Source: Candidatus Parcubacteria bacterium (GTDB taxonomy: Bacteria > Patescibacteriota > Minisyncoccia > Phycocordibacterales > EsbW-18). Taken from it: a DNA stretch of 53,001 bases. The translations under genes and the position numbers were made by a program. Below the pieces are notes generated by a model. The model was given only the letters and a program-made list of their open reading frames with translations, made no database searches and was not told the origin of the DNA. Of this stretch, positions 12,737 to 50,333 are shown one piece after another (position 1 is the stretch's first letter; the number at the start of each line of letters is the position of its first letter). The DNA is taken from positions 1-53,001 of the forward strand of contig JBDKFZ010000009.1 of NCBI GenBank assembly GCA_039798445.1, written 5' to 3'.

Positions 12737-14110
12737 TTATACCATTCCTCTCAGCTGCGTGATCTCCTGCTCGAGCTGATGATCGGTCTTGAGATCCTCC
12801 TTTACCTTCTCGTATGAGTGGATGACGGTGGTGTGATCACGACCGCCGAGCTTTTGTCCGATGGTTGGGTATGGCAACGCAAAATCTTCGCGCAAAAGAT
12901 ACATGATGACTTGACGCGGCTTCACAACTTCTTTTTTGCGGCTCTTTTTGTAGATGCTTTCTTCGTCGAGGTTATAGAATCCTGCAACCATCTTTACGAT
13001 GTCTTTTACCGCAACCATTTTCTTTGGTTTGATGTTGTTCTTAACAATCTCTTTGACCTCCTGGAGCGTCAGATCGCGTTTCTTGAACTGTATCTGACCG
13101 AGAATGGAGTTGAGGGCACCTTCGAGTTCGCGGATGTTTCCTTCGAGTGCACTTGAGAGGAAAGCAATGATGTCATCAGGGAGCACAACGCCGCTTTCAG
13201 CAGCCTTTGCTTTGACGATGGCGGTGCGTGATTCGGGGTCTGGTGATTGAATATCAACCGTCATGCCAGCGTTAAAGCGCGATTTGAGGCGGTCTGCGAT
13301 TGATGCGATGTAGTTTGGGTGACGGTCTGAAGAGAAGATGATCTGACCGTTACGTTCGTAGATATCGTTGAACATATGGAAGAGCTCCTCCTGAGTCTTT
13401 TGGGTGTTTGAAAGGAACTGAACGTCGTCCATGATGATGACGTCGTACTTTCGGTACTTCTCTTTGAACGCATTTGCGCTGTTGGTTTGAATTGAGTTGA
13501 TGTAGTCCTGCGAAAAACGCTCTGACGTAACGTAATAGACTTTTTTCTCGGGGAATTTTTGTTTGATTTCATTCCCTACCGCTTGGATGAGGTGGGTTTT
13601 TCCGTTTCCTGTTTGTCCGTAGATGAAAAACGGATTGTAGCGACGGCCCGGGCGTTCGATGATTGCTTGTGCGGCGGCGTGTGCAATTTCGTTGAACGTA
13701 CCAACAATGAATGATGAGAACGTATAGCGTGGATTGAGATTGTCGCTCTTGTTGATATAGAGATCGCGAAGTGGAAGTTCCCCTCCCATTGACGACGCCA
13801 TCGACGACTCGAGCGTTGCTGTCGGCATCGTTGTGTCTTCGGGAGCTTTGGTTGATATGGTGTATTCAACAGAACGAACAACATCAGAGAGCTCGCGGAG
13901 CGTCTTAAGAATCGTCTTGTGGTGTTTGGTGTGGATCCAATCTTTGGCAAAGAGGTTTGGAACACCGACGATGACAGTCCCCTCTTCGACGCGGACGATG
14001 TGGGTACCTTTGAACCATGTTCGGAAGCTCGCGCTCGATACCGACGACTCAACCGCAGAAAGCACATGCTTCCAAAGAGTCTTTGTGTCGGTTGGAGGAG
14101 GGAGTGTCAT
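12737..14110 (-). CDS. dnaA: Chromosomal replication initiator DnaA
   Basis: GQTGNGKTHL and a domain IV motif RDHTTVIHSYEKV. Head-to-head with rpmH. Confidence 0.97.
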   Translation of the reverse strand: MTLPPPTDTKTLWKHVLSAVESSVSSASFRTWFKGTHIVRVEEGTVIVGVPNLFAKDWIHTKHHKTILKTLRELSDVVRSVEYTISTKAPEDTTMPTATLESSMASSMGGELPLRDLYINKSDNLNPRYTFSSFIVGTFNEIAHAAAQAIIERPGRRYNPFFIYGQTGNGKTHLIQAVGNEIKQKFPEKKVYYVTSERFSQDYINSIQTNSANAFKEKYRKYDVIIMDDVQFLSNTQKTQEELFHMFNDIYERNGQIIFSSDRHPNYIASIADRLKSRFNAGMTVDIQSPDPESRTAIVKAKAAESGVVLPDDIIAFLSSALEGNIRELEGALNSILGQIQFKKRDLTLQEVKEIVKNNIKPKKMVAVKDIVKMVAGFYNLDEESIYKKSRKKEVVKPRQVIMYLLREDFALPYPTIGQKLGGRDHTTVIHSYEKVKEDLKTDHQLEQEITQLRGMV

Positions 14111-16940: not shown

Positions 16941-17765
16941 TTAAAAAGATACGTGCCAATGAGGAGCAACTCCTGGGCCACACTGAGCATCTTCCCAGTG
17001 GAATGTCAGACCGTCTTTGACCTTACCTTGAAAACAGGTACCCCCCGCTCCCCCAATGTAGGCATTTATTCCAGATTGCTGTCTGAGGTCGACGGTCCTA
17101 TTGTCTCTGTGGGTATTGTGGAGCCAATATTCTGTGCCAGCAGTAACGATGATCCGACAGCTTGGCTGGGCTGCCACGCACCGCGACTTGAGATTGATAA
17201 GACCTTCGATGGCACCCTGTGTGAGTCCGTGGACACTTGTGCACCCTCTTTGTCCGATGGTGGTGCAGTTTGCATTGTTTATGCCGATTCCTGCTGCTAA
17301 AAGGGCCTCTCGCTCGCTTGCATCACTCGGCCATGCCTCACCATCGTCAGTAGGAGTTGGTGGGGGCGGCGCGCCGCTTATTGCTGCATCAGCCGCCTGG
17401 TCGAGGCTCCTGACGAGATCGAACTTCACGAGGTTTGGATTGATGGTGTAGAGGATGAGCCACGCGCTAAAAGCGAGGATGAGACCCCAAACGATATTGC
17501 CGAGATTATTCTTGGAGGCGATTTTGACTCCCGGAATATCGGAGAACATGTACTGGATGCCGTTGATGACGAGCATAACGACGGCGAGTGTTACCGCAAT
17601 ACCGATGCCAAGCTGGAACAAGCCGTTCAGGTAGCTGCCAAAATCAGCGCTTTGTCCGATGAACGGGAGGTCTTTGACGATGAGATAGTCAGACGGTGCA
17701 GCCGAAGCAATCGAGGCGACGGTGAGGATCGATGCTGAGGCGAGATAAGAAAAGGTTTTTTTCAT
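16941..17765 (-). CDS. VirB2/TrbC-like pilin domain fused to a LAS (M15-like) zinc peptidase domain
   Basis: Signal peptide and two TM helices (LFQLGIGIAVTLAVVMLVINGIQYMF, IVWGLILAFSAWLILYTINPNL), then a PPPPTP linker. The C-domain has IIVTAGTE, HRDNRTVD (H-x6-D) and a terminal HWH. Confidence 0.65.
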   Translation of the reverse strand: MKKTFSYLASASILTVASIASAAPSDYLIVKDLPFIGQSADFGSYLNGLFQLGIGIAVTLAVVMLVINGIQYMFSDIPGVKIASKNNLGNIVWGLILAFSAWLILYTINPNLVKFDLVRSLDQAADAAISGAPPPPTPTDDGEAWPSDASEREALLAAGIGINNANCTTIGQRGCTSVHGLTQGAIEGLINLKSRCVAAQPSCRIIVTAGTEYWLHNTHRDNRTVDLRQQSGINAYIGGAGGTCFQGKVKDGLTFHWEDAQCGPGVAPHWHVSF

Positions 17766-17767
17766 AT

Positions 17768-18496
17768 TTATTCCAAAAAGAGTGTCGTTTTTCCAGAAGC
17801 GTTCTCGAGAATCCGGCCACTGTTTGCTATCGAGACTCCGACGGTTGTGGTGCCTGCCGCAGATTCTGATCGTAGAACCAGTCGGCCACTGTTACCGAGT
17901 GGGTTGGAGACACTCGAACTATTCACCTCCCATCGATATGAAAGAGCGGGGTTGTCACGCCGTGTTGTGGTAAAGAAAAGCGGGTACGTTTCTACAACAA
18001 GCTCTTCACCGTTGAGACGGGGGTTTTCGACGTTGAACAAGACTCCTCCAAGTGGTGCGTCGGCATAGACGAGCACACGAGGTTTGGTGAGTGGTATGCG
18101 GAGCGCACCTGTTCCGATGGGGCCCTTTTCATCAGAGACTTCGACGACGATGAGGGGAGATCCACCGAAGATCTCGCTACGGACTTCGTATGTGTTCTTG
18201 CCGACTCCTGAGCGTGCTCCATCAACGGCCCCATCAACGCGCCACGAATAGCTTGTCTTGTCGGTTGCGGCAATTCCTGAAGGTAGGAATGCGACGATTC
18301 GACCATCTCCCCCATCGGGCATAAGCGCCTTACCTTTGTAGAAAGGTGGCACGTACGAGCGGGCTTCCCAAACGAGTGTGATGTTGGGAGTGACGTTTTT
18401 TGTGACTACGTTCACCTGGGCGAGCGCAGATGACGAGACGAATGCGAACGATAGTGCGAATATTGCGAGGAGGTATTTCATGAGGCGTGGATTCAT
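17768..18496 (-). CDS. Hypothetical secreted protein with two beta-sandwich-like repeats
   Basis: Signal peptide MKYLLAIFALSFAFVSSSALA. Internal duplication (SYSWRVDGAV... and LSYRWEVNSSSV...). Confidence 0.55.
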   Translation of the reverse strand: MNPRLMKYLLAIFALSFAFVSSSALAQVNVVTKNVTPNITLVWEARSYVPPFYKGKALMPDGGDGRIVAFLPSGIAATDKTSYSWRVDGAVDGARSGVGKNTYEVRSEIFGGSPLIVVEVSDEKGPIGTGALRIPLTKPRVLVYADAPLGGVLFNVENPRLNGEELVVETYPLFFTTTRRDNPALSYRWEVNSSSVSNPLGNSGRLVLRSESAAGTTTVGVSIANSGRILENASGKTTLFLE

Positions 18497-19664: not shown

Positions 19665-21731
19665 CTACTGAAGCACGTTCTTCAATTCTACACCCTCAGT
19701 GATGCTTTTCGGAGGCTCAGGAGCGATGCTTTGTGCCGGTTGTGCTGCGGGACGCTGTGGTGCAACGACAGATGCATCGCCTGATGATGGTCGTGTTTTT
19801 GTTGCGGCAGGAACAGTGTCTGATGCCAGCGTATCGTCGGACGATGGCTTTGTTTTTTCTGGAACGAGTGCGGGTGCGGGCATCGCGGTCTCTGCTGCAT
19901 TCTCCGCGGCGGTCGTCTGGGCTTGTCGGTATTCTGCCTTTGCCTTTTTGATAGCCATCACCTGTGACGGATCGGACGTGATGATTTGGTCTTCGGTGTA
20001 TGAAGCGATGGTTTTGATGGCGACGTGTTTGAGTCCCGCAAAGAAGATGCCCTCCCCTACTTCTGATTCGAGCAAGAGATATTTTTCTTCGTCGGTGAGG
20101 TTGAATGTCTTCTGAACCAAATCAACCGATGATGGTGATTGTTTGAGCAGAACTTGGATCGATGAGTTTGTGATGATTGGGAGACCGTATGGTGAGCGCA
20201 AGAAGTCGCCGACGTCTTGTGTGATTGTTGCGATACCCAAGAAGTATTTGCGGCCACGTTTTGCAAGACCAAAGAGGAGCGATGCGGTGTCTTCTGACTT
20301 CATCATCCACCACGCCTCATCGACGACGAGGAGACGTTTCTTGATGTCGCGGCGGACCGCGCTCCAGATGTAGTGTGTGATGAGATACATCGCAACCGGC
20401 TTCAATTCATCTTCCATGTCGCGCACCGAGAACACAACGAACTTCTTGTTGATGTCGACGTTCGATGGGTTGTTGATGAATCCAGACCATGTTCCTTTTG
20501 TGTATTTGGAAAGACGCGTCACGAGCGACTCCCCTCCTTCCATGCCGGCCAAGACAAGCTCAAAGTCAGAGAGAAGCGGTGGTTGTGCACCTGCCCAGTC
20601 GGCTTCGCCGGTGATGTCTTTGAGCGCGTATGTCTCGGTGAGCGCGCGGTCGACGATGGCGTCTTCTTCGGGAGTGAGATTGCCGAACATAATACGGAAG
20701 AGACCGACGAGTGTCACGATGTGTGAACGCAGAACGTTGTTCGGTGTCTCATCTTCTTTGACTGGTGGCAGGTCAAACGGATTGATGTGGTGCTCCGACG
20801 TAAGCGAGATGTTGAAATAGCGGCCACCCATCGATTCAGCCATGAATTCGTATTCGCGCTCGGGGTCGATGACGATGACTTCGGTCTCGAACATGAGTGT
20901 GCGGAGAATTTCGAGCTTCGTTGCATATGATTTACCAGCACCTGACGTTGCGAACGTTACCGAGTTGTAGTTTGGGAGCGAGAAGCGGTCGAACAAGATA
21001 AGCGACGAGTTGTGGCGGTTCACACCGTAGAGAATCCCCTTGTCTGAGGTGAGGTCGAACGAAACGAATGGGAAGAAGCTCGAAAGCGGTGATGTGTTGA
21101 GTTTCGAGTGAACATTGAGTTCATCGAGTTGGATCGGAAGAACACTGCGGAAGCCTTGTTCTTGCTGAAAAAGCGCAGGTTTGAGGTAGATGAGGCGAGC
21201 TTCGAGGATTGAACGAATTTCGGACTCCATCTTATCGAGCTCGTTCTGGCTCTCGGCATAGATTGATATATAGAGACCGACATCGAAGAGTTTCTCGGTC
21301 GCCTGCTGGAGCTGGTCGCGCAACCCTTCGAGGTTCTGGTAGGCAGCATCGAGCATCGGATCGCGCACGAGACCCTTCTCTTCTCGCATATGAATCTGGC
21401 TCTGCACTTCGGCAACGCGCTTACGGAAATCTTTGAGCGCGACCGATGTCTCAATCGGCATGATTGAAATCGAAATGTCGAAGACCTTATCCAAGTTGAT
21501 GATCGGCGAAAGCCAGTTGTCCGGGATGAAACGTGGGTATGAGATAACGAAGAAGGTGCGCACGATGCGGTCACCAAGATTGAGTTCGCGTGGTGTGATC
21601 TTGAGCGCCGAAGGAGCAAGGATGTCTTTGAGTTCCAAGACTCCTGCCTCGTAGATGTCTTTTGGAAGGACCGGTGTTATCTCCGGAGCACCTGCTGTTT
21701 TTCGTTTTGTTAAGAAATCAAAGAAAGACAT
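19665..21731 (-). CDS. VirB4/TrbE/ConE-like T4SS ATPase
   Basis: Walker A ATSGAGKSYATK and Walker B RLLVVDEAWWMM. N-region pattern ILAPSALKITPRELNLGDRIVRTFFVISYPRFIPDNWL. Disordered C-tail. Confidence 0.8.
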   Translation of the reverse strand: MSFFDFLTKRKTAGAPEITPVLPKDIYEAGVLELKDILAPSALKITPRELNLGDRIVRTFFVISYPRFIPDNWLSPIINLDKVFDISISIMPIETSVALKDFRKRVAEVQSQIHMREEKGLVRDPMLDAAYQNLEGLRDQLQQATEKLFDVGLYISIYAESQNELDKMESEIRSILEARLIYLKPALFQQEQGFRSVLPIQLDELNVHSKLNTSPLSSFFPFVSFDLTSDKGILYGVNRHNSSLILFDRFSLPNYNSVTFATSGAGKSYATKLEILRTLMFETEVIVIDPEREYEFMAESMGGRYFNISLTSEHHINPFDLPPVKEDETPNNVLRSHIVTLVGLFRIMFGNLTPEEDAIVDRALTETYALKDITGEADWAGAQPPLLSDFELVLAGMEGGESLVTRLSKYTKGTWSGFINNPSNVDINKKFVVFSVRDMEDELKPVAMYLITHYIWSAVRRDIKKRLLVVDEAWWMMKSEDTASLLFGLAKRGRKYFLGIATITQDVGDFLRSPYGLPIITNSSIQVLLKQSPSSVDLVQKTFNLTDEEKYLLLESEVGEGIFFAGLKHVAIKTIASYTEDQIITSDPSQVMAIKKAKAEYRQAQTTAAENAAETAMPAPALVPEKTKPSSDDTLASDTVPAATKTRPSSGDASVVAPQRPAAQPAQSIAPEPPKSITEGVELKNVLQ

Positions 21732-21733
21732 GA

Positions 21734-22384
21734 TTATGAATTGAGTTTGATTGGCTTCTCAGAGTCGCCAGGGTTGAAGAGCTTGTAGTAGAGCTCAACA
21801 AGCTCTTCAGTTCCCAATTGAACAGCGCGGATGCCGGCGCGCGCGAGACCTTGTGAGACGACGGCGACACGCTGATCGAGCTGGCTCTTGTTCTCTTCGA
21901 ATATGTTGAGAATCTCCTGCGAGTCTTTTTTCTTTCCCATGAGCCCACCGAGCGCTCCGGTGATTCCCCCGCTGCTTTGTGACACCGCCGCTGCAGAATA
22001 TGGGACGACGACGAAGAAGCTCTTGGACATGATGTTCACATTCTCGGTGAACCCTTTGATGAATTCGATGTACTCACGTGTCTGGACCTTAATGAGATCA
22101 ATCGTCTGTTCTTTGAGTTGAGCATCGAGAAGTGCGAGGTATGGGCGGATGTCGAGTTCGCGTGATTCGATGAAGAACTGCAACGGGAACTCAATCGAGT
22201 TGATGAGATTTTGGAACTGCATGATAATCGCCGTCTGTTCGCTCTCGGATTTGAGAGCAAAGTTGAGCGATGATGCGAGCAAGACGCTTCGGAGCGATCC
22301 ATCGACTAAAACGACGGTACCACTCCGGATTTCTTTGATCGGAACGAACTTTTGCGCGGACTGCGCTTTAGGAGCGGGAGCCAT
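21734..22384 (-). CDS. Protein resembling the extreme N-terminal domain of Gram-positive-type VirB4 (ConE/Orf16-like)
   Basis: FVPIKEIRSGTVVLVDGSLRSVLLASSLNFALKSESEQTAIIMQFQNLINSIEFPLQFFIESRELD. The stop lies 2 nt before the ATPase ATG (TAATCATG), in a different frame. Confidence 0.45.
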   Translation of the reverse strand: MAPAPKAQSAQKFVPIKEIRSGTVVLVDGSLRSVLLASSLNFALKSESEQTAIIMQFQNLINSIEFPLQFFIESRELDIRPYLALLDAQLKEQTIDLIKVQTREYIEFIKGFTENVNIMSKSFFVVVPYSAAAVSQSSGGITGALGGLMGKKKDSQEILNIFEENKSQLDQRVAVVSQGLARAGIRAVQLGTEELVELYYKLFNPGDSEKPIKLNS

Positions 22385-22444: not shown

Positions 22445-22861
22445 ATGCGATTCGAAGTACCCCAATTCATCGATGTCGAAGATAAGATCTTCGGCCCGCT
22501 GACGTTCAAACAGTTCATCTATCTCGCGGGAGGCGCTGGAGCCTCAGTAATTCTGTGGTCATTCCTCCCTAAAATTGTGGCGATCCTTCTTATTCTCATC
22601 GTCGTTGGTCTTGCCTGTGCGCTTGCTTTCTACAAGATTAACAACAAGCCGTTCGTCGATTTTCTCGAATCAGCATTCAAATACAGCCTTGCAGGAAAGC
22701 TCTATATCTGGAAGAAAGAGGCGCGCCCTGTCGAACAGCATACCGCCGCCCTCCCTACCGATGAGTCTGTGGGCGTACCGCGTATCTCTGACAGTAAGCT
22801 TCGCGACCTGGCCTGGAGTCTCGATGTCCACGATTCGCTCTATAGCGAAACGGAGAAATAA
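22445..22861 (+). CDS. PrgI/VirB3-like small membrane protein
   Basis: MRFEVPQFIDVEDKIFGPLTFKQFIYLAGGAGA followed by two TM helices. Divergent from the VirB4 operon. Confidence 0.6.
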   Translation: MRFEVPQFIDVEDKIFGPLTFKQFIYLAGGAGASVILWSFLPKIVAILLILIVVGLACALAFYKINNKPFVDFLESAFKYSLAGKLYIWKKEARPVEQHTAALPTDESVGVPRISDSKLRDLAWSLDVHDSLYSETEK

Positions 22862-22887
22862 AACACCCCGCAGATGCGGGGTGTTTT
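22861..22887. terminator. Bidirectional terminator
   Basis: aaacaccccgc agat gcggggtgttt. Confidence 0.75.
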
Positions 22888-23493: not shown

Positions 23494-25752
23494 TTAGAAT
23501 ACTAATCCGTTAATAGAGGTGAGCCAACCGACTGACGCGCTAAGCGTGTTCAGTTTAAGTTGCTCGTCTACTGTCAGAGGTCGTCCTGTTATTGCGGATA
23601 GACGGGCGTGTTCGGCAGTGATGTTAGCTCGTATTGTGCTCTTGTCTGCGTCGCTCATTTTGCCGTCAGTGGCAATCTTAGCAAGAGTGTTTGCTGAGAG
23701 ATGTCCAGAGACAGCAGCATTCGTGAGGACATCTGACGGTAATTGTGCGACCTCGTGAGGTTTGCCGGAGGCGATTTTCTTCGCCTCCTTATTGACATCC
23801 GCGACACTCTTTCCAGGATTGACATTGAGCCTATCAAGAAGACCGGTCTTGCGTGCGCCGTTGATTTCATTCTTAACCGTATCGCTGACAAGATCACTCG
23901 ACATAATCTTGTCCATATGTTTCGAGGTGAGGTCGGGCGCCATTTTCTTGAGTTTGTCGATCTGTCCAGTTGCCAACATTTCCTCGATTTGTTTATCAGT
24001 CATTCTTGAAACAGTCTCAAGATAATCCTTGATGGCGCCTGTTGTGGAGTCGTATGTGCCCGCACTGAGATCTTTCTGTGTTTGTACAAGACCGTCCTTA
24101 ATCTTCTGTGCATCGTTCGCCTCCTTAACAGCCTGGCCGAGCTCTTTCTGACGCTGGAGAGCTGCCTTTTCGCGGTCGGCAAGGCTTTCTTGTGAACCGA
24201 ATTTTGATGCAGCAGTTGTCTTGAGTGTATCGCGGATACCTTCATCAATAGGTGTTCTCCGGGCGATACCAGCAATCGTTCTTCCTGCTGCAAATTTGGC
24301 TACACCTGTAACACCCTTGGCATCTTTAAAGGTGAGCTGAGACATGCGGCCCATAGCAGTGTCGTACTTTTCTCCGGCAAATCGAGCGCCTCTACCAAAA
24401 GTATTGCGTCCGAGGAAGCCAAGGACCGCTCCCGGTGCTCCTTGCGCCTTCTTGATCGCCCAGTTGGCGGCCCCATTTGATGCTGCACCTGCGGTACTCT
24501 TGGCAACGACCATACTCACAATGAGGAGGCCGATGACGATGGCATATTGAACGAGACCCTCTACACCACCAACCAATCCAGGCACAGATTCTGCTGAGAA
24601 CCTACCTCTAAACTCCGGGTTTGAAACGACAACCGCAGTGACCACCAAGAAGAGCATCATGAGCGGTGCAAACACGGCTTGATCGATAAGCGTCTTCCAC
24701 CATTTTTTGGAATACCCTGCTATTTGCGGGAAAAGGCCACCCATCACCGAGACCGGTGAGGTTATGAGAAGGATGATGAGGACAACGAACCGGCCGAGAA
24801 GCAAGAAGCCCATCGCAAAGAATACGAATGCCAAAATGAGGAATGTGATCGAAGAGAAGATCATCTGCTGCAACAAAGTCGCCACGAAGGATGCCGCATT
24901 CAGGTCTTTGATAGCGGCAACTTGGATTCCTGTCCCCTGCATGAAGACTGCAGTAATGCCACCCGGTGTTCCAACGACGCTGTTATCTTCGCCCGCCTCG
25001 ATGTTGTCACCGATCCTTCTCACCGCTTCGTGCATCTGTACGGTGAGGACGTTCGATGCGTCGATGATGACGCTTGTGAAGAAGAAGCTGAAGTTGATGA
25101 GAAGGCCCGCGATGACGACTCCTTTGACGATACCCTTCTCTTTACCGAGACCAAGAATCATCGATATCGATGCATACAAAAGAAGGAAGATGAATGTGAT
25201 GTTCATCGTGTCGCGCAAAACGGTCCATGCGATGCGGATGCCTGGCAATGCTGCCCAGTTGTGAAAATCTAATATGGACAGCTTGATGACGAGGTCGAGG
25301 AACATCGCAGAGATCCACACCAAGAAACCAAATGTCGAGTAGATGGCGTAATAGAAGAGCCTTCCGATGACACAGTTGAGATCTGGAGAGAGCCAACCTC
25401 CGCAGTCGATATCTTGTGGTTCTGCCGGAGGCTGAGGTGATGCCGCGATACCGCTTCCAGCAGGGGCGTTTGCAACACATGCGGACCCCTCTTGGTGTTG
25501 TCCGGCCGGACACGACATGGTGTCAGGAGACCATGGCTCATCATCGACACACCCCGATCCTTCTTGGTGCTGTCCTACTCCACACGAGATTGTATCGGGG
25601 ATACAGCCAAAACCGCTTGGGTCTGGGTGGGTACCAGGCTGACATGTTTGTGCAAGGCTCTGCTGTGGAGCAAAGAGAATGAATCCTGCTAGCACCAAGA
25701 AACTGATGCTGGTTGTGAGGAGAGCTATTTTTTTACCCCAGTTTGTTTTCAT
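23494..25752 (-). CDS. VirB6/TrbL-like polytopic membrane protein with a Cys-repeat ectodomain and long C-terminal soluble domain
   Basis: Signal peptide, 3x C-x2-G-x-H-x3-5-SG-x-C repeats, about 7-8 TM helices, and a roughly 300-aa K/A/T-rich C-domain. Confidence 0.55.
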   Translation of the reverse strand: MKTNWGKKIALLTTSISFLVLAGFILFAPQQSLAQTCQPGTHPDPSGFGCIPDTISCGVGQHQEGSGCVDDEPWSPDTMSCPAGQHQEGSACVANAPAGSGIAASPQPPAEPQDIDCGGWLSPDLNCVIGRLFYYAIYSTFGFLVWISAMFLDLVIKLSILDFHNWAALPGIRIAWTVLRDTMNITFIFLLLYASISMILGLGKEKGIVKGVVIAGLLINFSFFFTSVIIDASNVLTVQMHEAVRRIGDNIEAGEDNSVVGTPGGITAVFMQGTGIQVAAIKDLNAASFVATLLQQMIFSSITFLILAFVFFAMGFLLLGRFVVLIILLITSPVSVMGGLFPQIAGYSKKWWKTLIDQAVFAPLMMLFLVVTAVVVSNPEFRGRFSAESVPGLVGGVEGLVQYAIVIGLLIVSMVVAKSTAGAASNGAANWAIKKAQGAPGAVLGFLGRNTFGRGARFAGEKYDTAMGRMSQLTFKDAKGVTGVAKFAAGRTIAGIARRTPIDEGIRDTLKTTAASKFGSQESLADREKAALQRQKELGQAVKEANDAQKIKDGLVQTQKDLSAGTYDSTTGAIKDYLETVSRMTDKQIEEMLATGQIDKLKKMAPDLTSKHMDKIMSSDLVSDTVKNEINGARKTGLLDRLNVNPGKSVADVNKEAKKIASGKPHEVAQLPSDVLTNAAVSGHLSANTLAKIATDGKMSDADKSTIRANITAEHARLSAITGRPLTVDEQLKLNTLSASVGWLTSINGLVF

Positions 25753-28558: not shown

Positions 28559-29293
28559 ATGAAATCACGAAGCATCAGCACTGCATTTTTCTTGTTCGCT
28601 TTCTTCACGATTGTTCCGTTTTCTGCGCATGGGTATACGTTTTCTCGCGACTTGAAGCTCGGCGATTCCGGAGAGGACGTCCGCGCCCTCCAAATGAGCC
28701 TCAATGCCAACACGCAGACGCGCGTCGCTGCCTCAGGTGTTGGATCTCCGGGTCAAGAAACAAATTTTTTTGGAGAAAAGACGCAATCGGCTGTGATTCG
28801 GTACCAAAATCTCCACGCCGACGATATATTGCGCCCGATTGGGCTTGCTGTGGGGACTGGATATGTCGGTGCAGCAACGCGAAATAGGCTTAGTGGAAAC
28901 ACTGGTGGCGGAACCACTACCAAAAAAAGCCTCAACGAGGCCATTGCTGCCTTTGATACGGCCCTTGGGGTCTCTCCTGGCGCTGAAACAAATCGTTCCC
29001 CTGTCGACGACCCACGCATTCCTAAGACAGAAGACGAGCTCATTGCGGCGGTCGATGATTTTGCGGGTTCAGACGTAAGTGATGCAGAGATCGTGGACTT
29101 TAGCAGACAAATGGTCATTGCGCGCTATGGGTATTCAACGGAGATTCAGGGTTCGTCGGGTGATGATGACGAAAGCGATACTGGTGATGGAGACGATGAT
29201 GGTGGGGGTGGCAGTTCGGGAGGCCAGGAATTTGACACGGGTGGTAGCGGTGCAGGCTGCATTGGGCTTCTCTTAAGCTTTCTCGGACTCTAA
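28559..29293 (+). CDS. Secreted protein with a peptidoglycan-binding (PG_binding_1-like) domain
   Basis: Signal peptide, then LKLGDSGEDVRALQMSLN...FFGEKTQSAVIRYQ. Acidic and G-rich tail. Confidence 0.6.
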   Translation: MKSRSISTAFFLFAFFTIVPFSAHGYTFSRDLKLGDSGEDVRALQMSLNANTQTRVAASGVGSPGQETNFFGEKTQSAVIRYQNLHADDILRPIGLAVGTGYVGAATRNRLSGNTGGGTTTKKSLNEAIAAFDTALGVSPGAETNRSPVDDPRIPKTEDELIAAVDDFAGSDVSDAEIVDFSRQMVIARYGYSTEIQGSSGDDDESDTGDGDDDGGGGSSGGQEFDTGGSGAGCIGLLLSFLGL

Positions 29294-30550: not shown

Positions 30551-31093
30551 CTAGAGATCGTCCCAGTCGATAGTGAGTAAGTCTTTCTTACGAGGAGGGA
30601 TTGGGATGCCAGAACTATCGACTGCAGTCACCAACGCCTCATCGATATCAGTGAGAAATCGTGACGGGATGTTCACATTGGTCGAACCAAAGACTGTGCG
30701 CACTGATGCATACGAGAGATGTGCCTGTTCTTTTGCGCGGGTGATTGCAACGTAGAAAAGACGACGTTCTTCCTCGCGCTCTTCGGGCGTCGCGCGCATC
30801 TCACTACGCTCGCTCGGAAAGAGTCCTTCTTCGAGGCCGGCGATGAAAACATGTTTGAATTCAAGACCTTTTGCGGCATGTACGGTCATGAGCTTCACCG
30901 ACGCTTCGGCTTTTGACATTGCATCCTGATCGCTCGCGAGCGCCACTGCATCCATGAATGCGTGGAGTGATTCACCTTGTGGCAACACGTCGTAGCGCAT
31001 CGCGAGCGAAGCGAGTTCTTTGAGGTTCAGGAGTCGCTCGTTCCCTTCATCACCATCAGCGATGAGCTCTGTCTCAATGCCACTCTCTTTCAT
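30551..31093 (-). CDS. uvrD: UvrD/PcrA helicase, C-terminal fragment (domain 2A end)
   Basis: TVHAAKGLEFKHVFIAGLEEGLFP, EEERRLFYVAITRAK. In frame with the upstream fragment, 6 codons after its TAA. Confidence 0.8.
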   Translation of the reverse strand: MKESGIETELIADGDEGNERLLNLKELASLAMRYDVLPQGESLHAFMDAVALASDQDAMSKAEASVKLMTVHAAKGLEFKHVFIAGLEEGLFPSERSEMRATPEEREEERRLFYVAITRAKEQAHLSYASVRTVFGSTNVNIPSRFLTDIDEALVTAVDSSGIPIPPRKKDLLTIDWDDL

Positions 31094-31111: not shown

Positions 31112-32509
31112 TTATGGTGAGAGAGTCTCTGATACTTCGCGGATGCGCACCAAGAGCGCGCGGACATTCGCTATCTTTGCTGCGTGCGATGCGGAGAGCT
31201 CGTGTTCGAGTCCCGACGTGATGCGCAAGATGGTGGTTTTGCCGATGCCGCGCGCCGGCACGTTCACGATGCGCGCAAAGTTGGTCATACTCTCGGGATT
31301 GAGTGCGGCATTCAAGTACGACATCACATCCTTCACCTCTTTGCGTTCAAAGAATCGTGTGCCGAGCATTTGATATGGAATGCGTTCAGAGAGAAAGGCT
31401 TCTTCGAGTGCACGTGATTGAAAATGTGCGCGGAATAAAACCGCGATGTCTGCTGCGGAGATACCGCTTGCAATCAATTCTTTTGCGCGCTTTGCGACCC
31501 ACTGTGCTTCGTGCGTTTCGTTGAATGCGGTAAAGATTTCGATTGGCGCGCCGTCGGTGTTGTTGGTGAAGAGTGTCTTATCTTTGCGCATCGCATTTTG
31601 TTTGATCGCATCGTTTGCCGCGGTGAGAATCGTTTTTGTCGAACGATAGTTTTCTTCGAGCATGATGACGCGCGTTCCTTTGAACTCTTCTTCAAAACGC
31701 GCCAAGTTGCGCAAGTCGGCCGAGCGCCACGTGTAAATGCATTGATCGTGATCACCAACGACGCAGATGTTGTTTGCAGGATTTGCCAAGAGCTTTGCGA
31801 GCTCGTACTGCACGATGTTGGTGTCTTGGTACTCATCCACCATGATGTGCGAGAAACGACGACGATAGCGTTCGAGAATGTCGGGGTGTGACTTGAGCAT
31901 CTCGTATGTCGCCAAGAGGAGATCGTCGAAGTCGAACGCCTTCTCTTTGGCGAGCTCTTCGGCATAGCGCTCCCATACTGCCGTGACGGTCCGGCCGACA
32001 CGCTCATTGCTTCGTTCTTCTCGATACCGTGCGAGCGTCATTGCCTCCCCCTTGCTTCGCGACATAGTAGAGAGAATCGAGCTGGCCGACATTGTCTTTG
32101 GGTCCATGCCGAGATCTTTCTGGATCCTCTTAATGAGCGAGATCGAGTCGTCCCGGTCGAAGATACTGAATCGAGCCGGCAAACCAAGCGCCACGGCATT
32201 GTCTCGAAGTACCGAGACGCCGAAGCTGTGGAAGGTACCGACGAAGGGCGTTCTATATATAGGCTTGTCGGTCCCCGCATGCTCCGAGAGCAGATGTCCC
32301 ACTCGCTCGCGCATCTCCCCCGCCGCTTTGTTGGTGAATGTGATAGCCAAAATAGACTCTGGGGCGATACCTTGGGTGATGAGATGAAGCATTCGGCGGG
32401 TAAGGACACGGGTTTTTCCTGTCCCTGCTCCTGCCACAATGATTAATGGACCGGTCGTGTGGAGCACGGCCTCTTTTTGGGCAGGGTTGAGGTCGTCGAG
32501 GTGTTTCAT
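31112..32509 (-). CDS. uvrD: UvrD/PcrA helicase, N-terminal fragment ending at an in-frame TAA
   Basis: AGAGTGKT, DEYQDTN. Start trimmed to MKHLDDLNPAQKEAV. The stop TAA is at 31112-31114. Confidence 0.85.
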   Translation of the reverse strand: MKHLDDLNPAQKEAVLHTTGPLIIVAGAGTGKTRVLTRRMLHLITQGIAPESILAITFTNKAAGEMRERVGHLLSEHAGTDKPIYRTPFVGTFHSFGVSVLRDNAVALGLPARFSIFDRDDSISLIKRIQKDLGMDPKTMSASSILSTMSRSKGEAMTLARYREERSNERVGRTVTAVWERYAEELAKEKAFDFDDLLLATYEMLKSHPDILERYRRRFSHIMVDEYQDTNIVQYELAKLLANPANNICVVGDHDQCIYTWRSADLRNLARFEEEFKGTRVIMLEENYRSTKTILTAANDAIKQNAMRKDKTLFTNNTDGAPIEIFTAFNETHEAQWVAKRAKELIASGISAADIAVLFRAHFQSRALEEAFLSERIPYQMLGTRFFERKEVKDVMSYLNAALNPESMTNFARIVNVPARGIGKTTILRITSGLEHELSASHAAKIANVRALLVRIREVSETLSP

Positions 32510-32915
32510 GTTTTCGCATGATAGCATGCCCTCTAAAACCATTTACATAAAATTTAGTTCGTGGTCTAATCAAGCAAACCTGTCCTCCAAACCCCTTTTG
32601 GACGTCTTGGGGTAACCTTTTCACGGGCGGTGGAAAAATCCGTGATAATACGGTGTTTAAAAAATCTGTCAATACTCGACGCTCTCTTTGAGAGGACTAA
32701 AATGGTCTTTGTTAGCTCCCGAAACGATCCGACCTCAGACCCGCCTTAGATAGGCGGGCGTCGCACGAAAGAAAGCAGAATTAGTATCTAACCCCAATTG
32801 TATTACTAGTTTTTCTGGCGACTCTGACCCTTCCAAACGTAGCGCCGGGCTTCGTTGGCAGGTCACCAATAGGTTTTACGCTTCTCTCCAGACGGGCTTT
32901 TTTGTAGTCCTTCTT

Positions 32916-34513: not shown

Positions 34514-36055
34514 TCATTGCGGACTGAGTCCTTTCGACCGGTACTGCACCGCTTCGAGTATGTGTGCGGGCTCGATTGTCACAGCGCGTTCGAGGTCTGC
34601 GATTGTGCGCGCGAGTTTGATGACACGATGGTAACCGCGCCCCGACAAATCAAGTTTGGCTGCGGCTGTGTTGAGCGTGTCTGTTGCCTCTGGCGACATG
34701 TTGGCAAACTTTCCTATATCTTTTGGACCTAAGTCGCTGTTTTTCTTGATTGCTGTATCTGCATACCGATTAAGTTGTACGTTTCGCGTTTGTGCAACGC
34801 GTTCTGCAACCACTGCGCTCGGCTCGCCGTCGTCCATCGATGAAAGCTTTGCATGTTCGACCGGTGGTACTTCGATCCACATATCGATACGGTCGATAAT
34901 GGGACCAGATACTTTGCGCTGATAGCGCATGAGCGTATGTGCGCTGCACGTGCAGGTTTTCTTTGAACCCCAATTGCCGCATGGACAGGGGTTGAGTGCG
35001 GCGATGAGAATGACATCTGCGGGAAACTTTGCGGAGCCACGCACACGCGAAACGGATACGGAGCGTTCTTCGAGTGGCTGACGGAGTGCTTCAATCACAC
35101 GCCGTTCGAATTCGGGAAGTTCGTCGAGAAACAATACACCACGATGTGCGAGTGATAATTCGCCAGGGCGCGGTATCGACCCTCCCCCAATGAGCGCAAC
35201 ATACGAGCTCGTATGGTGTGGCGCGCGGAACGGCGGATGTGTAATCAAGTCGCCATTGAGTGTTCCTGCAATCGAATGGATGCCAGTCACTTCGAGTGCG
35301 GTCTCAAATGCTAAGGGTGGCATGATGCTCGCGCAGGCTTTTGCAAGGAGTGTCTTCCCTGTCCCTGGCGGTCCCCACAATCCAACATTGTGACCACCTG
35401 ACGCAGCGATTTCGAGCGCGCGCTTGGCGTGTTCCTGCCCCTTAATATCTTTAAGGTCGACTGCATACGAGGGAGGAATGTGAACGAAAGGCGTTTCTTC
35501 TTGTTGCCCTATCCGCTCGCGCTTCTTTCTTTTGGTATCGGGAGAGAGATGTTCGACGAGTTGAGCAAGCGTGTGTACGGGGAATATCTTTATATCTCTC
35601 ACGAGTGCAGCTTCGCGCGCATTGTCTGTGGGGACGTACACTTCGGTGAATCCAGATTCTTGTGCATGAATGACGAGCGGAAGCACGCCGGGTATCGGGC
35701 GCACATCACCATCGAGTGAGAGTTCTCCTAGAAAAAGTTTTTTGTCGGGATCGAATGAAACATCCTCTGTTGCAAGAAGATATGCGAGTGCGATGGGTAC
35801 ATCGAACATTGGACCTTCTTTTCGTACATCAGCGGGAGCAAGCGAGATGACAATCTTTTCGTTCTTGCTCTTAGGCGATTCGAATCCGGAATTTTTGATG
35901 GCCGCACACACACGATCGCGCGATTCCTCGACTGCTTTGTCGGGAAGTCCGACGAGCGTGAATGAATTCAATCCACGCGAGATATCGACCTCGACCGTTA
36001 CCGTGTGCGCCCTGAGCATCGATGTCTGTGCGCTGTATGTTTTGGCGAATGACAC
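34514..36055 (-). CDS. comM: YifB/ComM family Mg-chelatase-like AAA+ protein
   Basis: GTG start. Lon-like N-domain, GPPGTGKT, and a C-terminal Mg_chelatase_C-like segment. Confidence 0.9.
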   Translation of the reverse strand: MSFAKTYSAQTSMLRAHTVTVEVDISRGLNSFTLVGLPDKAVEESRDRVCAAIKNSGFESPKSKNEKIVISLAPADVRKEGPMFDVPIALAYLLATEDVSFDPDKKLFLGELSLDGDVRPIPGVLPLVIHAQESGFTEVYVPTDNAREAALVRDIKIFPVHTLAQLVEHLSPDTKRKKRERIGQQEETPFVHIPPSYAVDLKDIKGQEHAKRALEIAASGGHNVGLWGPPGTGKTLLAKACASIMPPLAFETALEVTGIHSIAGTLNGDLITHPPFRAPHHTSSYVALIGGGSIPRPGELSLAHRGVLFLDELPEFERRVIEALRQPLEERSVSVSRVRGSAKFPADVILIAALNPCPCGNWGSKKTCTCSAHTLMRYQRKVSGPIIDRIDMWIEVPPVEHAKLSSMDDGEPSAVVAERVAQTRNVQLNRYADTAIKKNSDLGPKDIGKFANMSPEATDTLNTAAAKLDLSGRGYHRVIKLARTIADLERAVTIEPAHILEAVQYRSKGLSPQ

Positions 36056-36151
36056 GAAGTCAGTGTATTCATGGAAGATAAAGAGAGCCTAAAGAACGTT
36101 CCGGTGCGCATTAATTAGAGTGATATACTGAGTGGTCTAAAGAATTAAGCT

Positions 36152-37345: not shown

Positions 37346-37440
37346 GATCGTTAAGAAAAAACTTAAAGACATCAAAAGACCCGCCGTGTGCATTTTGCTC
37401 ATCTTTATATAACCCTCCGAATATTTTATTAAAAAACGAA

Positions 37441-37473
37441 CTCCCGCGGGGCCGACAAGCGGCCGCGCGGGAG
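37441..37473 (-). terminator. Terminator of the secreted-protein pair
   Basis: ctcccgcg...cgcgggag stem. On the minus strand it is followed by ttcgttttttaat. Confidence 0.7.
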
Positions 37474-37485
37474 GGTTGAGTACAA

Positions 37486-49845: not shown

Positions 49846-49916
49846 TGCGGGCAGCGAGAATCGAACTCGCGTCTCGTCCTTGGCAAGGACGTGTTCTACC
49901 ACTAAACCATGCCCGC
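49846..49916 (-). tRNA. tRNA-Gly (anticodon GCC)
   Basis: Hand-folded: acceptor GCGGGCA/TGCCCGC, anticodon arm CGTCC-TTGCCAA-GGACG, T arm GCGAG-TTCGATT-CTCGC. No CCA is encoded. Confidence 0.9.
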
Positions 49917-50178: not shown

Positions 50179-50333
50179 ATTTGGTTGATTTTATAAGGGG
50201 ATTCGGTCACGGATGATTTTCTGCTGAAAATCTCCGCGACCCCGCCTCGGCCCGTCGGCCTCCGGCTTTCGAATCCCTCCGGTCGCTAAAATAATAGTCG
50301 CTCAATGCTTCGCATCTCGCTCGTTTATTTTAT

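What the first reader, a model, noticed from the sequence alone, without database searches (positions are those of the whole stretch)
16941..17765. Pilin-like protein covalently fused to a LAS/M15-type cell-wall peptidase domain
Seen: the N-terminal 120 aa have the VirB2/TrbC pilin layout. That is a signal peptide, hydrophobic helix 1 (LFQLGIGIAVTLAVVMLVINGIQYMF), a short polar loop, and helix 2 ending in TINPNL. After a PPPPTP linker comes a Cys-rich 150-aa domain with IIVTAGTE, HRDNRTVD (H-x6-D) and a C-terminal HWH. Established: H-x6-D plus H-x-H is the zinc triad of LAS metallopeptidases (VanX/VanY, phage L-Ala-D-Glu peptidases), and T4SSs normally carry a separate VirB1/CwlT-type hydrolase. 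Inference: the wall-cutting enzyme is tethered to the pilin-like subunit itself. That would localise peptidoglycan remodelling, of the cell's own wall or a partner's, at the site of assembly. I do not know of a described pilin-hydrolase fusion of this kind.
Basis: partly seen in the sequence, partly recalled or inferred. Interest (0 to 1): 0.65.

Follow-up and report, generated by a model that had tools for sequence, protein, structure and literature searches.

The report
T4SS pilin fused to wall peptidase-like domain
In an ultra-small Patescibacteria (CPR) genome, the only pilin gene of the type IV secretion locus next to the replication origin is fused to a zinc-site domain with a Hedgehog/DD-peptidase-like fold, probably a cell-wall peptidase; this fusion is the rule in a large, undescribed protein family and may explain why these secretion systems seem to lack the usual wall-cutting enzyme.

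Summary
A 274-aa ORF lies at 16941-17765, on the minus strand, and every quoted motif is present.

- **N-terminal half:** it passes Pfam's threshold for T4SS_pilin (PF18895) and folds as a signal peptide plus a helical hairpin.
- **C-terminal 135 aa:** no Pfam, NCBIfam, PHROG or PDB sequence relative. A confident AlphaFold model (pLDDT 95) has as its only compact structural neighbours the Hedgehog/DD-peptidase (LAS) fold: Sonic hedgehog, the S. albus Zn DD-peptidase 1lbu, a phage lysin and a Hedgehog-like phage protein. The scores are modest.
- **Metal-site motif:** E212, H216, H219-x6-D226 and H269 are essentially invariant in 292 family members. Position 271 is only ever His or Asp.
- **Other contexts of the domain:** SLT fusions in CPR; in Streptomyces and Deinococcus, PG_binding_1 fusions or stand-alone secreted proteins beside lysozyme or amidase genes.
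- **The fusion is the rule:** 136 of 143 cluster representatives carry both domains, in a conserved slot of the virB4 locus beside dnaA.
- **Comparison:** in the studied Saccharibacterium S. epibionticum, pilins and a Hedgehog/DD-peptidase-domain protein are separate genes of the T4SS locus.

Most likely this is a pilin-anchored peptidoglycan peptidase serving the T4SS. Catalysis, its target wall, and pilus display are all untested.

The parts
16941..17765 (-). Whole ORF, 274 aa plus stop: pilin-like module + linker + LAS-like domain
17700..17765 (-). Sec-type signal peptide, residues 1-22 (MKK..SIASA|A); the cleavage site is inferred
   Evidence: Sequence; helix 5-20 in the model; A22 is conserved in at least 90% of members
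17445..17630 (-). Match to Pfam T4SS_pilin PF18895 (residues 46-107)
   Evidence: 29.3 bits against cut-off 26.6
17541..17633 (-). Hydrophobic helix 1 (residues ~45-75)
   Evidence: Hydropathy; model helix 42-74
17439..17507 (-). Hydrophobic helix 2 (residues ~87-109), ending in the invariant L-x-T-I-N-P motif
17349..17426 (-). Linker, residues 114-139: short helix 117-130, then low-confidence GAPPPPTPT
   Evidence: pLDDT 57-61. Across 107 fusions the linker has median length 33 aa and is rich in Thr, Gly and Pro
16944..17348 (-). C-terminal domain, residues 140-274: unnamed family with a Hedgehog/DD-peptidase (LAS)-like fold
   Evidence: Model pLDDT 95.4, pTM 0.89; fold hits; family size
17088..17132 (-). 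Motif E212-x3-H216-x2-H219-x6-D226 (TE..H..H......D): proposed metal ligands H219 and D226, plus catalytic candidates E212 and H216
   Evidence: 98-100% conserved in 292 members
16953..16961 (-). H269-W-H271 motif; H269 is invariant; position 271 is His in CPR and Asp in non-CPR members
17768..18496 (-). Conserved upstream operon partner, 242 aa, with a signal peptide or anchor; function unknown
   Evidence: Orthologues in L001, L003 and L007 at 47%, 31% and 27% identity
15657..16934 (-). Conserved downstream operon partner, 425 aa, N-terminal TM; function unknown
   Evidence: Orthologues at 47%, 29% and 30% identity
18522..19649 (-). 375-aa membrane protein between virB4 and the pilin gene; poorly conserved
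19665..21731 (-). VirB4-like ATPase, P-loop part (CD1110 family, monoderm type)
   Evidence: NF045971 at 359.5 bits against cut-off 325
21734..22384 (-). TraC-like N-terminal part of VirB4, as a separate ORF
   Evidence: the same split is seen in relatives (PF26593)
22445..22861 (+). PrgI/VirB3-like protein, inverted relative to the operon
   Evidence: PF12666 at 48 bits against cut-off 27
23494..25752 (-). 752-aa polytopic membrane protein; VirB6-like by position and topology only
   Evidence: Hydropathy; orthologues in relatives; no Pfam hit
12737..14110 (-). dnaA, which marks the locus as origin-proximal (rpmH, rnpA and yidC lie between)
   Evidence: the same arrangement is seen in relatives

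Best explanation
The gene encodes a Sec-exported membrane protein made of three parts.

1. A VirB2-like T4SS pilin module: a signal peptide and two hydrophobic helices forming a hairpin, with both termini outside the membrane.
2. A flexible linker rich in Pro, Gly and Thr.
3. A 135-aa extracytoplasmic domain, probably disulfide-stabilised, with a Hedgehog/DD-peptidase (LAS)-like fold. It has a His/Asp/His(Asp) metal site (H219, D226, H271) and further invariant polar residues (E212, H216, H269).

The gene is a fixed core gene of the origin-proximal, monoderm-type (VirB4 CD1110/MPF-FATA-like) T4SS of Paceibacteria-group Patescibacteria.

Proposed mechanism: the pilin module inserts into the membrane and joins the T4SS, either around the channel or in a pilus. 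This holds the metallopeptidase head in the cell-wall zone at the machine. There the head cleaves peptidoglycan peptide stems or cross-links, opening the wall locally. In effect it is a VirB1-type function carried by the pilin itself.

Shown: the ORF, the domain boundaries, the pilin-family match, the invariant motif, the fold neighbours, the synteny, and the other cell-wall contexts of the domain.

Inferred: zinc binding, peptidase activity, the substrate, the topology, and whether the target is the cell's own wall or the host's.
For: - **Pilin module:** PF18895 above its cut-off, with near-threshold TrbC and Mbov_0395 pilin-like hits. The model shows a helical hairpin at 42-74 and 78-108. 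It is the only pilin-like ORF in the 53-kb window.
- **T4SS context:** VirB4, a TraC-like ORF and PrgI are adjacent. Gene order is conserved in relatives at 46%, 31% and about 40% identity, with orthologous flanking genes.
- **C-domain model:** pLDDT 95.4.
- **Fold neighbours in the PDB:** the only compact matches longer than 100 columns are Sonic hedgehog 7rpk_H (prob 0.60, TMq 0.43, rmsd 4.8) and the Zn DD-peptidase 1lbu (rmsd 4.7 over 113 columns).
- **Fold neighbours in BFVD:** a 442-aa phage lysin (prob 1.00, E 1.5e-3, TMq 0.49) and a Hedgehog-like Microviridae protein (prob 0.96).
- **Motif conservation:** E212, H216, H219, D226 and H269 are 98-100% conserved in 169 CPR members and 123 non-CPR members. 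Position 271 is only ever H or D.
- **Motif order:** the motifs align co-linearly with the ShhN residues I recall as its Zn-site ligands H141, D148 and H183 (ligand identity from memory); the fragment's sequence was verified against 2wfx_A.
- **Other contexts are all wall-related:** SLT plus this domain in P0077 and P0150; one or two PG_binding_1 domains plus this domain on Streptomyces plasmids, one of them next to a GH25 lysozyme; a stand-alone form in Deinococcus next to a MurNAc-L-Ala amidase.
- **A sister pilin carries SLT instead** (P0048).
- **No other wall hydrolase:** the scanned proteins of the locus have no recognisable one.
- **Literature:** the S. epibionticum T4SS locus encodes a separate protein with an ECOD Hedgehog/DD-peptidase domain next to virB4 (Wang 2023 Table S2). 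Most Patescibacteria with VirB2 lack a detectable VirB1 (PMC12102498).
Against: - **No significant sequence link to any LAS family.** Pfam on all 26 C-domains found nothing. A profile search against PDB sequences gave 0 hits at E<=10. PHROGs found nothing. hhalign against MepK, DdpX and ShhN gave probabilities of 0.1-13%.
- **No fold match reaches E<=0.001.** TM-scores are below 0.5.
- **The metal-site geometry could not be measured,** because no model coordinates were available.
- **Hedgehog's own zinc site is not a proven protease site,** so the fold does not guarantee catalysis.
- **Nothing shows that the protein polymerises,** or that the head stays attached after export.
- **A 135-aa head on every subunit may be hard to reconcile** with a tightly packed VirB2-type pilus.
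Confidence: 0.68

Rival explanations
1. The head is a host-directed weapon. The pilin polymerises into an extracellular filament whose surface or tip carries the peptidase heads, and these breach the cell wall of the bacterial host during epibiotic attachment. It would not serve to remodel the producer's own wall. This shares the enzyme assignment with the best explanation and differs in the target and in requiring pilus display.
For: The Patescibacteria T4SS is essential for epibiotic growth and mostly lacks a relaxase or coupling protein, which suggests a non-conjugative role. Pilins in the same syntenic slot carry interchangeable heads of HWH, HFH, HVH and SLT types. That pattern is reminiscent of polymorphic effectors. 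VirB2-type pilins expose their termini on the pilus exterior (my own knowledge of F-pilus structures).
Against: No immunity-like gene varies with the head type: the downstream ~420-aa gene is orthologous whichever head is present. A 135-aa domain on each subunit is sterically demanding. Pilus formation has not been shown in this clade.
Confidence: 0.3
2. The pilin-like hairpin is only a membrane anchor and assembly tag, and no pilus forms. In that case the protein is the equivalent of the TM-anchored VirB1-like hydrolases of Gram-positive T4SSs (PrgK, TraG of pIP501, TcpG, CwlT), sitting around the channel.
For: The VirB4 is of the monoderm CD1110 type. The N-domain also weakly matches the Mbov_0395 'pilin-like conjugal transfer protein' of wall-less or monoderm ICEs. 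P0077 and P0150 carry the same head behind a plain TM segment plus SLT, which is the classic Gram-positive VirB1 architecture.
Against: The pilin module is far more conserved than a simple anchor needs to be: G69, L105, T107, N109 and P110 are invariant. It passes the pilin family threshold. It is the only pilin in the locus.
Confidence: 0.35
3. The C-domain is a non-catalytic binding module. Like the Hedgehog signalling domain, it would use its metal site to bind a ligand such as peptidoglycan stem peptides or a host surface molecule, making the protein an adhesive pilin.
For: The best solved-structure match is Sonic hedgehog. NCBI annotators call the actinobacterial relatives 'peptidoglycan-binding protein', although that name comes from the PG_binding_1 domain.
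Against: Six polar residues are invariant, not just three ligands. In Streptomyces the domain is attached to dedicated PG_binding_1 modules, so it occupies the position of the catalytic domain, as I recall 1lbu being built. It is also paired with SLT.
Confidence: 0.15
4. The head is cut off after export, for example near the invariant LYTINP motif or within the Pro-rich linker. In that case the pilin part acts as a carrier or pro-sequence, and a soluble hydrolase plus an ordinary mature pilin are produced.
For: Some VirB2-type pilins are C-terminally processed (RP4 TrbC; my own knowledge). The LYTINP motif is invariant across pilins with every head type. The linker is disordered.
Against: No candidate protease (a TraF-like one) is seen in the locus. 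The linker sequence is not conserved.
Confidence: 0.15
5. The fusion is an artefact: an assembly or frameshift join of two genes.
For: None was found.
Against: The same architecture is present in 136 of 143 independent cluster representatives and in many assemblies. The reading frame is continuous.
Confidence: 0.01

Closest known systems
VirB2/TrbC-type T4SS pilins, specifically the Patescibacteria T4SS_pilin family (PF18895) described by Quinonero-Coronel et al. 2025 (PMC12102498) and Wang et al. 2023 (PMC10633639)
   Same: Signal peptide plus two-helix hydrophobic hairpin; above-threshold PF18895 match; located near virB4 and dnaA.
   Different: The described pilins are small (about 125-145 aa in S. 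epibionticum) and often occur in arrays of 2-11. Here a single pilin gene carries a 135-aa enzyme-like head, and no array is present in the window.
SEML1_0007 of Southlakia epibionticum ML1 (essential T4SS locus; Wang 2023 Table S2)
   Same: A Hedgehog/DD-peptidase-fold domain (ECOD e6n7gC1, prob 0.993) encoded right beside virB4 in a Patescibacteria T4SS locus.
   Different: There it is the C-terminal end (residues 951-1105) of a large separate protein, and the pilins are separate genes.
VirB1-like hydrolases of Gram-positive T4SSs (PrgK of pCF10, TraG of pIP501, TcpG, CwlT)
   Same: Membrane-anchored, extracytoplasmic wall-degrading enzymes encoded in the T4SS locus and needed to pass the thick wall. 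Family members P0077 and P0150 even have the TM + SLT + peptidase layout.
   Different: Those enzymes use SLT/lysozyme plus CHAP or NlpC/P60 cysteine peptidase domains and a plain TM anchor. This protein has a LAS-like metallo-domain and a pilin module as its anchor.
LAS metallopeptidases: Streptomyces albus G Zn D-Ala-D-Ala carboxypeptidase (1lbu, MEROPS M15A), MepK, VanX/VanY, and the Hedgehog N-domain
   Same: H-x6-D plus H-x-H/D motifs in the same order. The order of helices and strands around the motifs is the same by eye, comparing the DSSP string with my recollection of ShhN's secondary structure. These are the best structural neighbours. The Streptomyces relatives share what I recall as the architecture of 1lbu: a PG_binding_1 domain followed by the catalytic domain.
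   Different: No significant sequence or profile similarity to any of them. The domain has an extra Cys-rich N-terminal subdomain of about 40 aa, and additional invariant residues E212 and H216.

Membership tests
T4SS_pilin (Pfam PF18895) / VirB2-like pilins | Profile HMM score at or above the curated gathering threshold | tested here: met
   29.3 bits against 26.6, residues 46-107
T4SS_pilin (Pfam PF18895) / VirB2-like pilins | TrbC/VirB2 (PF04956) gathering threshold | tested here: not met
   22.2 bits against 27.9, E 1.6e-4; a near miss
T4SS_pilin (Pfam PF18895) / VirB2-like pilins | Signal peptide followed by a two-helix hydrophobic hairpin | tested here: met
   Hydropathy; AF2 helices 5-20, 42-74 and 78-108
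T4SS_pilin (Pfam PF18895) / VirB2-like pilins | Encoded in a T4SS locus with VirB4 | tested here: met
T4SS_pilin (Pfam PF18895) / VirB2-like pilins | Structural match to solved VirB2/TraA pilins | tested here: inconclusive
   The full-length Foldseek search gave only spurious histidine-kinase hits; helical hairpins are poorly discriminated
T4SS_pilin (Pfam PF18895) / VirB2-like pilins | Polymerises into a T4SS-dependent filament | not testable with these tools
   Needs microscopy or biochemistry
LAS metallopeptidases (Hedgehog/DD-peptidase fold; MEROPS M15, M23, M74) | Conserved H-x(3-6)-D motif | tested here: met
   H219-x6-D226: H219 in 289 of 292 members, D226 in 292 of 292
LAS metallopeptidases (Hedgehog/DD-peptidase fold; MEROPS M15, M23, M74) | Conserved C-terminal H-x-H (or equivalent) motif on the last strand | tested here: met
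   H269 in 292 of 292; position 271 is H in 160 members and D in 132; it lies on strand 130-134 of the domain model
LAS metallopeptidases (Hedgehog/DD-peptidase fold; MEROPS M15, M23, M74) | Fold similarity to solved or predicted LAS structures | tested here: inconclusive
   The top compact hits are all LAS-type but weak: 7rpk_H at E 0.4, prob 0.60, TMq 0.43; 1lbu at E 1.9; BFVD at E 1.5e-3 with prob 1.00, and E 2.2e-2 with prob 0.96
LAS metallopeptidases (Hedgehog/DD-peptidase fold; MEROPS M15, M23, M74) | Sequence membership in a curated M15 or M23 family model | tested here: not met
   No such Pfam or NCBIfam hit (Pfam at E<=10, NCBIfam at E<=0.1) for any of the 26 C-domains. A PDB profile search gave 0 hits. 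hhalign probabilities were at most 13%
LAS metallopeptidases (Hedgehog/DD-peptidase fold; MEROPS M15, M23, M74) | The three ligands converge on one metal site in 3D | not tested
LAS metallopeptidases (Hedgehog/DD-peptidase fold; MEROPS M15, M23, M74) | Zn2+ binding and peptidase activity on peptidoglycan peptides | not testable with these tools
   Needs biochemistry
VirB1-class T4SS wall hydrolases (functional class) | SLT/lysozyme or CHAP/NlpC-P60 catalytic domain | tested here: not met
   None in this protein. However, relatives combine the head with SLT, and a sister pilin carries SLT
VirB1-class T4SS wall hydrolases (functional class) | Encoded within the T4SS locus and placed outside the membrane | tested here: met
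   Locus. Outside location is inferred from the hairpin topology, the conserved Cys pairs, and the secreted or lipoprotein relatives

The most novel reading that the evidence does not exclude
Patescibacteria use the VirB2-like pilin as a modular display scaffold. The T4SS would build a filament, or a channel collar, studded with interchangeable wall-degrading heads: at least three LAS-like types (HWH, HFH, HVH) and SLT. This 'lytic pilus' would drill through the host bacterium's cell wall and create the conduit on which the epibiotic lifestyle depends. Under this reading the pilin-head fusion is the missing VirB1 and also the host-range determinant.
Probability: 0.2. Interest if true: 0.85.

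Novelty: new variant of a known kind. Interest (0 to 1): 0.62.

Why it matters
The Patescibacteria T4SS is essential for epibiotic growth in the one species tested. It is almost universal in the phylum, and its function is unknown.

A recent survey noted that most genomes with VirB2-like pilins have no detectable VirB1 and concluded that pilus biogenesis may not need one (PMC12102498). This finding offers a concrete alternative: in a large clade, the wall-cutting function appears to be built into the pilin itself.

It also defines a large secreted domain family with no Pfam model. There are at least 2,494 clusters at 50% identity, spanning CPR, Actinomycetota, Deinococcota and Chloroflexota. 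The family is a probable new branch of LAS/Hedgehog-fold metallopeptidases.

The fusion acts as a Rosetta-stone link between two components that are separate in S. epibionticum. It gives a directly testable handle, one small gene with six invariant residues, on how ultra-small bacteria get a secretion machine through a cell wall.

Tried and rejected
1. **+ strand reading of the coordinates:** full of stops. The gene is on the minus strand.
2. **Foldseek with the full-length model:** only spurious histidine-kinase matches, caused by the helical hairpin plus α/β shape. I discarded this and repeated the search with the C-domain alone.
3. **Sequence searches of the C-domain:**
   - phmmer against the PDB gave only a chance nanobody hit at E 0.4.
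   - A profile search against the PDB gave 0 hits at E<=10.
   - Pfam on all 26 members gave nothing relevant.
   - NCBIfam gave nothing.
   - PHROGs gave nothing.
   - tblastn against phage genomes gave no match.
4. **Profile-profile tests (hhalign):** against E. coli MepK and DdpX as single sequences, a shallow MepK family profile, verified ShhN, and the HFH and HVH head types. All were non-significant, with probabilities of 0.1-13%, although the motifs line up in register. I treat these as consistent with the LAS assignment, not as evidence for it.
5. **Assembly or frameshift artefact:** rejected on conservation.
6. **Polymorphic toxin plus immunity pair:** not supported. The downstream gene is orthologous whichever head type is present.
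7. **Invertible-element explanation for the inverted prgI:** no convincing flanking inverted repeats, only 13-15-nt arms at 80-85% complementarity.
Full report
**1. The observation**

The window holds an ATG-initiated ORF of 274 codons at exactly 16941-17765, on the minus strand. The + strand frame is interrupted by stops.
- the hydrophobic helix LFQLGIGIAVTLAVVMLVINGIQYMF;
- TINPNL at the end of the second helix;
- the PPPPTP linker (residues 133-138);
- IIVTAGTE;
- HRDNRTVD (H219-x6-D226);
- the C-terminal HWH (H269, H271).

The C-domain is about 135 aa rather than 150 and has six cysteines.

**2. Genomic setting**

All the neighbouring T4SS genes lie on the minus strand. In order they are:
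- a 566-aa protein and a 752-aa polytopic membrane protein;
- a 195-aa protein;
- a TraC-like ORF, followed by a VirB4 ATPase of the monoderm CD1110 family (NF045971 at 359.5 bits against cut-off 325);
- a 375-aa membrane protein and a 242-aa exported protein;
- the gene in question;
- a 425-aa membrane-anchored protein.

A PrgI/VirB3-like gene (PF12666, 48 bits) sits between the 195-aa gene and the TraC-like ORF, but on the + strand. Beyond the 425-aa gene come yidC, rnpA, rpmH and dnaA.

This is the origin-proximal, MPF-FATA-like T4SS locus described for Patescibacteria by Quinonero-Coronel et al. 2025 (PMC12102498). Relatives in species-representative genomes are labelled Zambryski-, Nomura-, Vogel- and Adlerbacteria, Paceibacterota and Parcubacteria. 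The window therefore comes from the Paceibacteria branch.

**3. The N-terminal module**

- Pfam T4SS_pilin (PF18895) matches residues 46-107 at 29.3 bits, above the 26.6 cut-off.
- TrbC/VirB2 (PF04956) scores 22.2 bits, just below its cut-off.
- NCBIfam's Mbov_0395 pilin-like family gives a sub-threshold hit.
- AlphaFold2 with 26 homologues predicts a signal-peptide helix (5-20), a helical hairpin (42-74 and 78-108), a short helix (117-130), and a low-confidence Pro-rich linker.
- A profile built from this module finds no other pilin-like ORF in the 53-kb window: 152 bits for this gene against 4 bits for the next best.

**4. The C-terminal domain, sequence level**

It is an orphan at the sequence level. 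I found no relative in any of these searches:
- Pfam or NCBIfam;
- phmmer or profile search against PDB sequences, with 0 hits at E<=10;
- Pfam on any of the 26 members;
- PHROGs;
- tblastn against phage genomes.

**5. The C-terminal domain, structure level**

A domain-only AlphaFold2 model is very confident (pLDDT 95.4, pTM 0.89).

Foldseek against the PDB gives nothing at E<=0.001. The only compact, long superpositions are these:
- Sonic hedgehog N-domain 7rpk_H: prob 0.60, TMq 0.43, rmsd 4.8 Å over 106 columns;
- the Streptomyces albus Zn DD-peptidase 1lbu: rmsd 4.7 Å over 113 columns.

Against BFVD the top two hits are these:
- a 442-aa phage lysin: prob 1.00, E 1.5e-3, TMq 0.49;
- a Microviridae protein described as Sonic-hedgehog-like: prob 0.96, TM 0.45/0.42.

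So four independent top hits converge on the Hedgehog/DD-peptidase (LAS) fold, but each is individually modest.

I verified my recalled ShhN sequence against 2wfx_A and compared the motifs by eye and with hhalign:
- VTEGW (Shh) against ITGGTE (this family's consensus);
- LHYEGRAVDI against THRDNRTVDL;
- HIHCSV against HWHVSF.

The alignment places H216 on Shh H135, H219 on H141, D226 on D148, and H269/H271 on H181/H183. These are the positions I recall as the Shh Zn-site residues. The probability is only 1.3%. Profile tests against MepK and DdpX are likewise non-significant.

**6. Conservation**

In 26 same-architecture homologues reaching down to 29% identity, H216, H219, D226 and H269 are invariant.

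An exhaustive profile search of 1.84 billion cluster representatives finds 2,494 relatives at E<=1e-3 and 1,776 at E<=1e-10.

Over 169 CPR members plus 123 non-CPR members:

| Residue | CPR (of 169) | Non-CPR (of 123) |
|---|---|---|
| E212 | 167 | 123 |
| H216 | 167 | 123 |
| H219 | 166 | 123 |
| D226 | 169 | 123 |
| H269 | 169 | 123 |
| Position 271 | His 160, Asp 9 | Asp 123 |

A position that admits only two metal-ligating residues is what one expects of a ligand.

Among the cysteines, C167, C175 and C203 are conserved in both groups. In the alignment C196 is Cys in 162 of 169 CPR members but aligns to Ser in 121 of 123 non-CPR members. A C196-C203 disulfide is therefore a CPR-specific inference.

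**7. Architectures**

- Of the 143 new representatives among the top hits, 136 have the pilin module followed by this domain at the extreme C-terminus. The median number of residues after the domain is 0.
- The linker has a median length of 33 aa and is rich in Thr, Gly and Pro.
- Two CPR members (P0077, P0150) have a TM segment, an SLT lytic transglycosylase, and this domain. That is the two-domain layout of Gram-positive VirB1-like hydrolases.
- A translated search of plasmids led to three further contexts:
  - Streptomyces proteins made of a signal peptide, one or two PG_binding_1 domains and this domain (85.6 and 75.6 bits to the family profile), one of them directly downstream of a GH25 lysozyme;
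  - a 179-aa stand-alone secreted version in Deinococcus (79.1 bits), directly downstream of an N-acetylmuramoyl-L-alanine amidase.
- The stand-alone form has 1,098 relatives, at E<=1e-5, in Deinococcus, many Actinomycetota and Chloroflexota. All are annotated as hypothetical protein, lipoprotein or 'peptidoglycan-binding protein', and none has a Pfam domain over this region.

Every context of the domain is extracytoplasmic and related to the cell wall.

**8. The fusion gene is a fixed part of the locus**

Three relatives have the same gene order: P0014 (46% identity), P0026 (31%) and P0027. The order is polytopic protein, PrgI, TraC-like, VirB4, two small genes, pilin fusion, a ~420-aa gene, then yidC, rnpA (called in two of the three) and dnaA/dnaN. 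The flanking genes are orthologous.

P0027 carries a different head, VTESYPPT..H.DPCH.SGTCVD...HFH. It again has H-x6-D and H-x-H, and it looks intermediate between this family and Shh (b vs Shh: E 0.0021, prob 13.5%). Other sister pilins carry an HVH-type head, an SLT domain (P0048; SLT at 50.4 bits), or short Cys-rich tails.

**9. Comparison with the studied system**

In Southlakia epibionticum ML1 the T4SS locus is essential for epibiotic growth. Its structure-based annotation table lists three relevant items:
- six small separate pilins (SEML1_0014-0019);
- a lysozyme-like/cysteine-proteinase protein, by position in the table SEML1_0006 (its row label was cut off in the passage I read);
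- SEML1_0007, whose residues 951-1105 are classified ECOD Hedgehog/DD-peptidase (template e6n7gC1, a Shh chain, prob 0.993). By locus-tag order it adjoins virB4 (SEML1_0008).

The two modules fused in this window therefore exist as separate components of a T4SS locus in another Patescibacteria class. This is a Rosetta-stone argument that they work together.

PMC12102498 reports VirB2-like pilins near virB4 in 1,135 assemblies. It also states that most genomes with VirB2 lack VirB1, and it does not mention pilin-hydrolase fusions. Full-text searches for PF18895/T4SS_pilin found only that work and a structure-clustering preprint, and neither describes the fusion.

**10. Mechanism (inference)**

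After Sec export and signal-peptide cleavage, a VirB2-type hairpin has both ends outside the membrane. The linker and head therefore sit in the wall zone. The conserved cysteines and the secreted or lipoprotein relatives fit this placement.

I propose that the pilin module recruits the protein into the T4SS, and that the metallopeptidase head cleaves peptidoglycan peptides locally. This would supply the VirB1-type function that the locus otherwise lacks: its scanned proteins carry no recognisable hydrolase domain.

The evidence does not decide three things:
- whether the target is the producer's own wall or the host's wall;
- whether the pilin polymerises into a head-decorated filament or only forms a collar at the channel;
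- whether the head is later released.

**11. Verdict**

The head is LAS/Hedgehog-DD-peptidase-like but is not a demonstrable member of M15. It belongs to a large unnamed family.

I class the finding as a new variant of a known kind: a T4SS-associated wall hydrolase that is built onto the pilin. Interest is 0.62. Confidence in the overall explanation is 0.68. It is higher, about 0.85, for the claim that this is a real, conserved fusion of a pilin and a metal-site domain, and lower, about 0.6, for peptidoglycan peptidase activity.

Noticed in passing
window 22445-22861 (+), hairpin 22860-22887: The PrgI/VirB3-like gene (PF12666, 48 bits) lies on the strand opposite to the rest of the T4SS operon. 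In three related loci it is co-directional with the operon. It ends in a perfect 13-bp stem hairpin. Only weak inverted repeats flank it (13-15 nt, 80-85% complementary).
   Followed up: partly
window 21734-22384 and 19665-21731 (-): VirB4 is encoded as two abutting ORFs: a TraC-like N-terminal part of 216 aa and a P-loop part of 688 aa. The same split is seen in relatives L001, L003 and L007, so it is natural rather than a frameshift. Two of those relatives also have a 23S_rRNA_IVP-family gene inserted nearby, which this window lacks.
   Followed up: partly
window 31112-32542 and 30551-31093 (-): A UvrD/PcrA-type helicase is split into a 476-aa ORF and a 180-aa ORF that carries the end of the UvrD_C domain. 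This could be a frameshift, a pseudogene or a sequencing error.
   Followed up: no
window 28559-29293 (+): A 244-aa exported protein with a PG_binding_1 domain (25 bits against cut-off 23), an acidic Gly/Asp-rich region and a hydrophobic C-terminal tail is transcribed divergently from the far end of the T4SS locus. PG_binding_1 is the module fused to the same C-domain in Streptomyces.
   Followed up: no
window 36001-38000: G+C dips to 0.444 against about 0.51 elsewhere. An ORF at 36152-37345 (+) lies in this stretch. Possibly foreign DNA.
   Followed up: no
window ~17436-17453 (residues 105-110), and alignment A1: The motif L-x-T-I-N-P at the end of the second pilin helix is invariant across pilins with every type of C-terminal head (L105, T107, N109, P110). 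Its role is unknown; it could be a membrane-interface motif or a processing or recognition site.
   Followed up: no
proteins P0017, P0018, P0027, P0029-P0032, P0039, P0046, P0048, P0049; locus L007 10001-10825: Pilins of the same family carry alternative C-terminal heads: an HFH type, an HVH type, SLT, and short Cys-rich tails. The HFH type sits in the same syntenic slot. This suggests a modular 'pilin plus head' system.
   Followed up: partly
protein P0404: A stand-alone homologue of the C-domain is labelled as a protein of the springtail Folsomia candida. This is either horizontal transfer into an arthropod or bacterial contamination of that assembly.
   Followed up: no
window 49846-49916 and 50333-50404 (-): Two tRNA genes are the only Rfam matches in the window at gathering threshold.
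   Followed up: no
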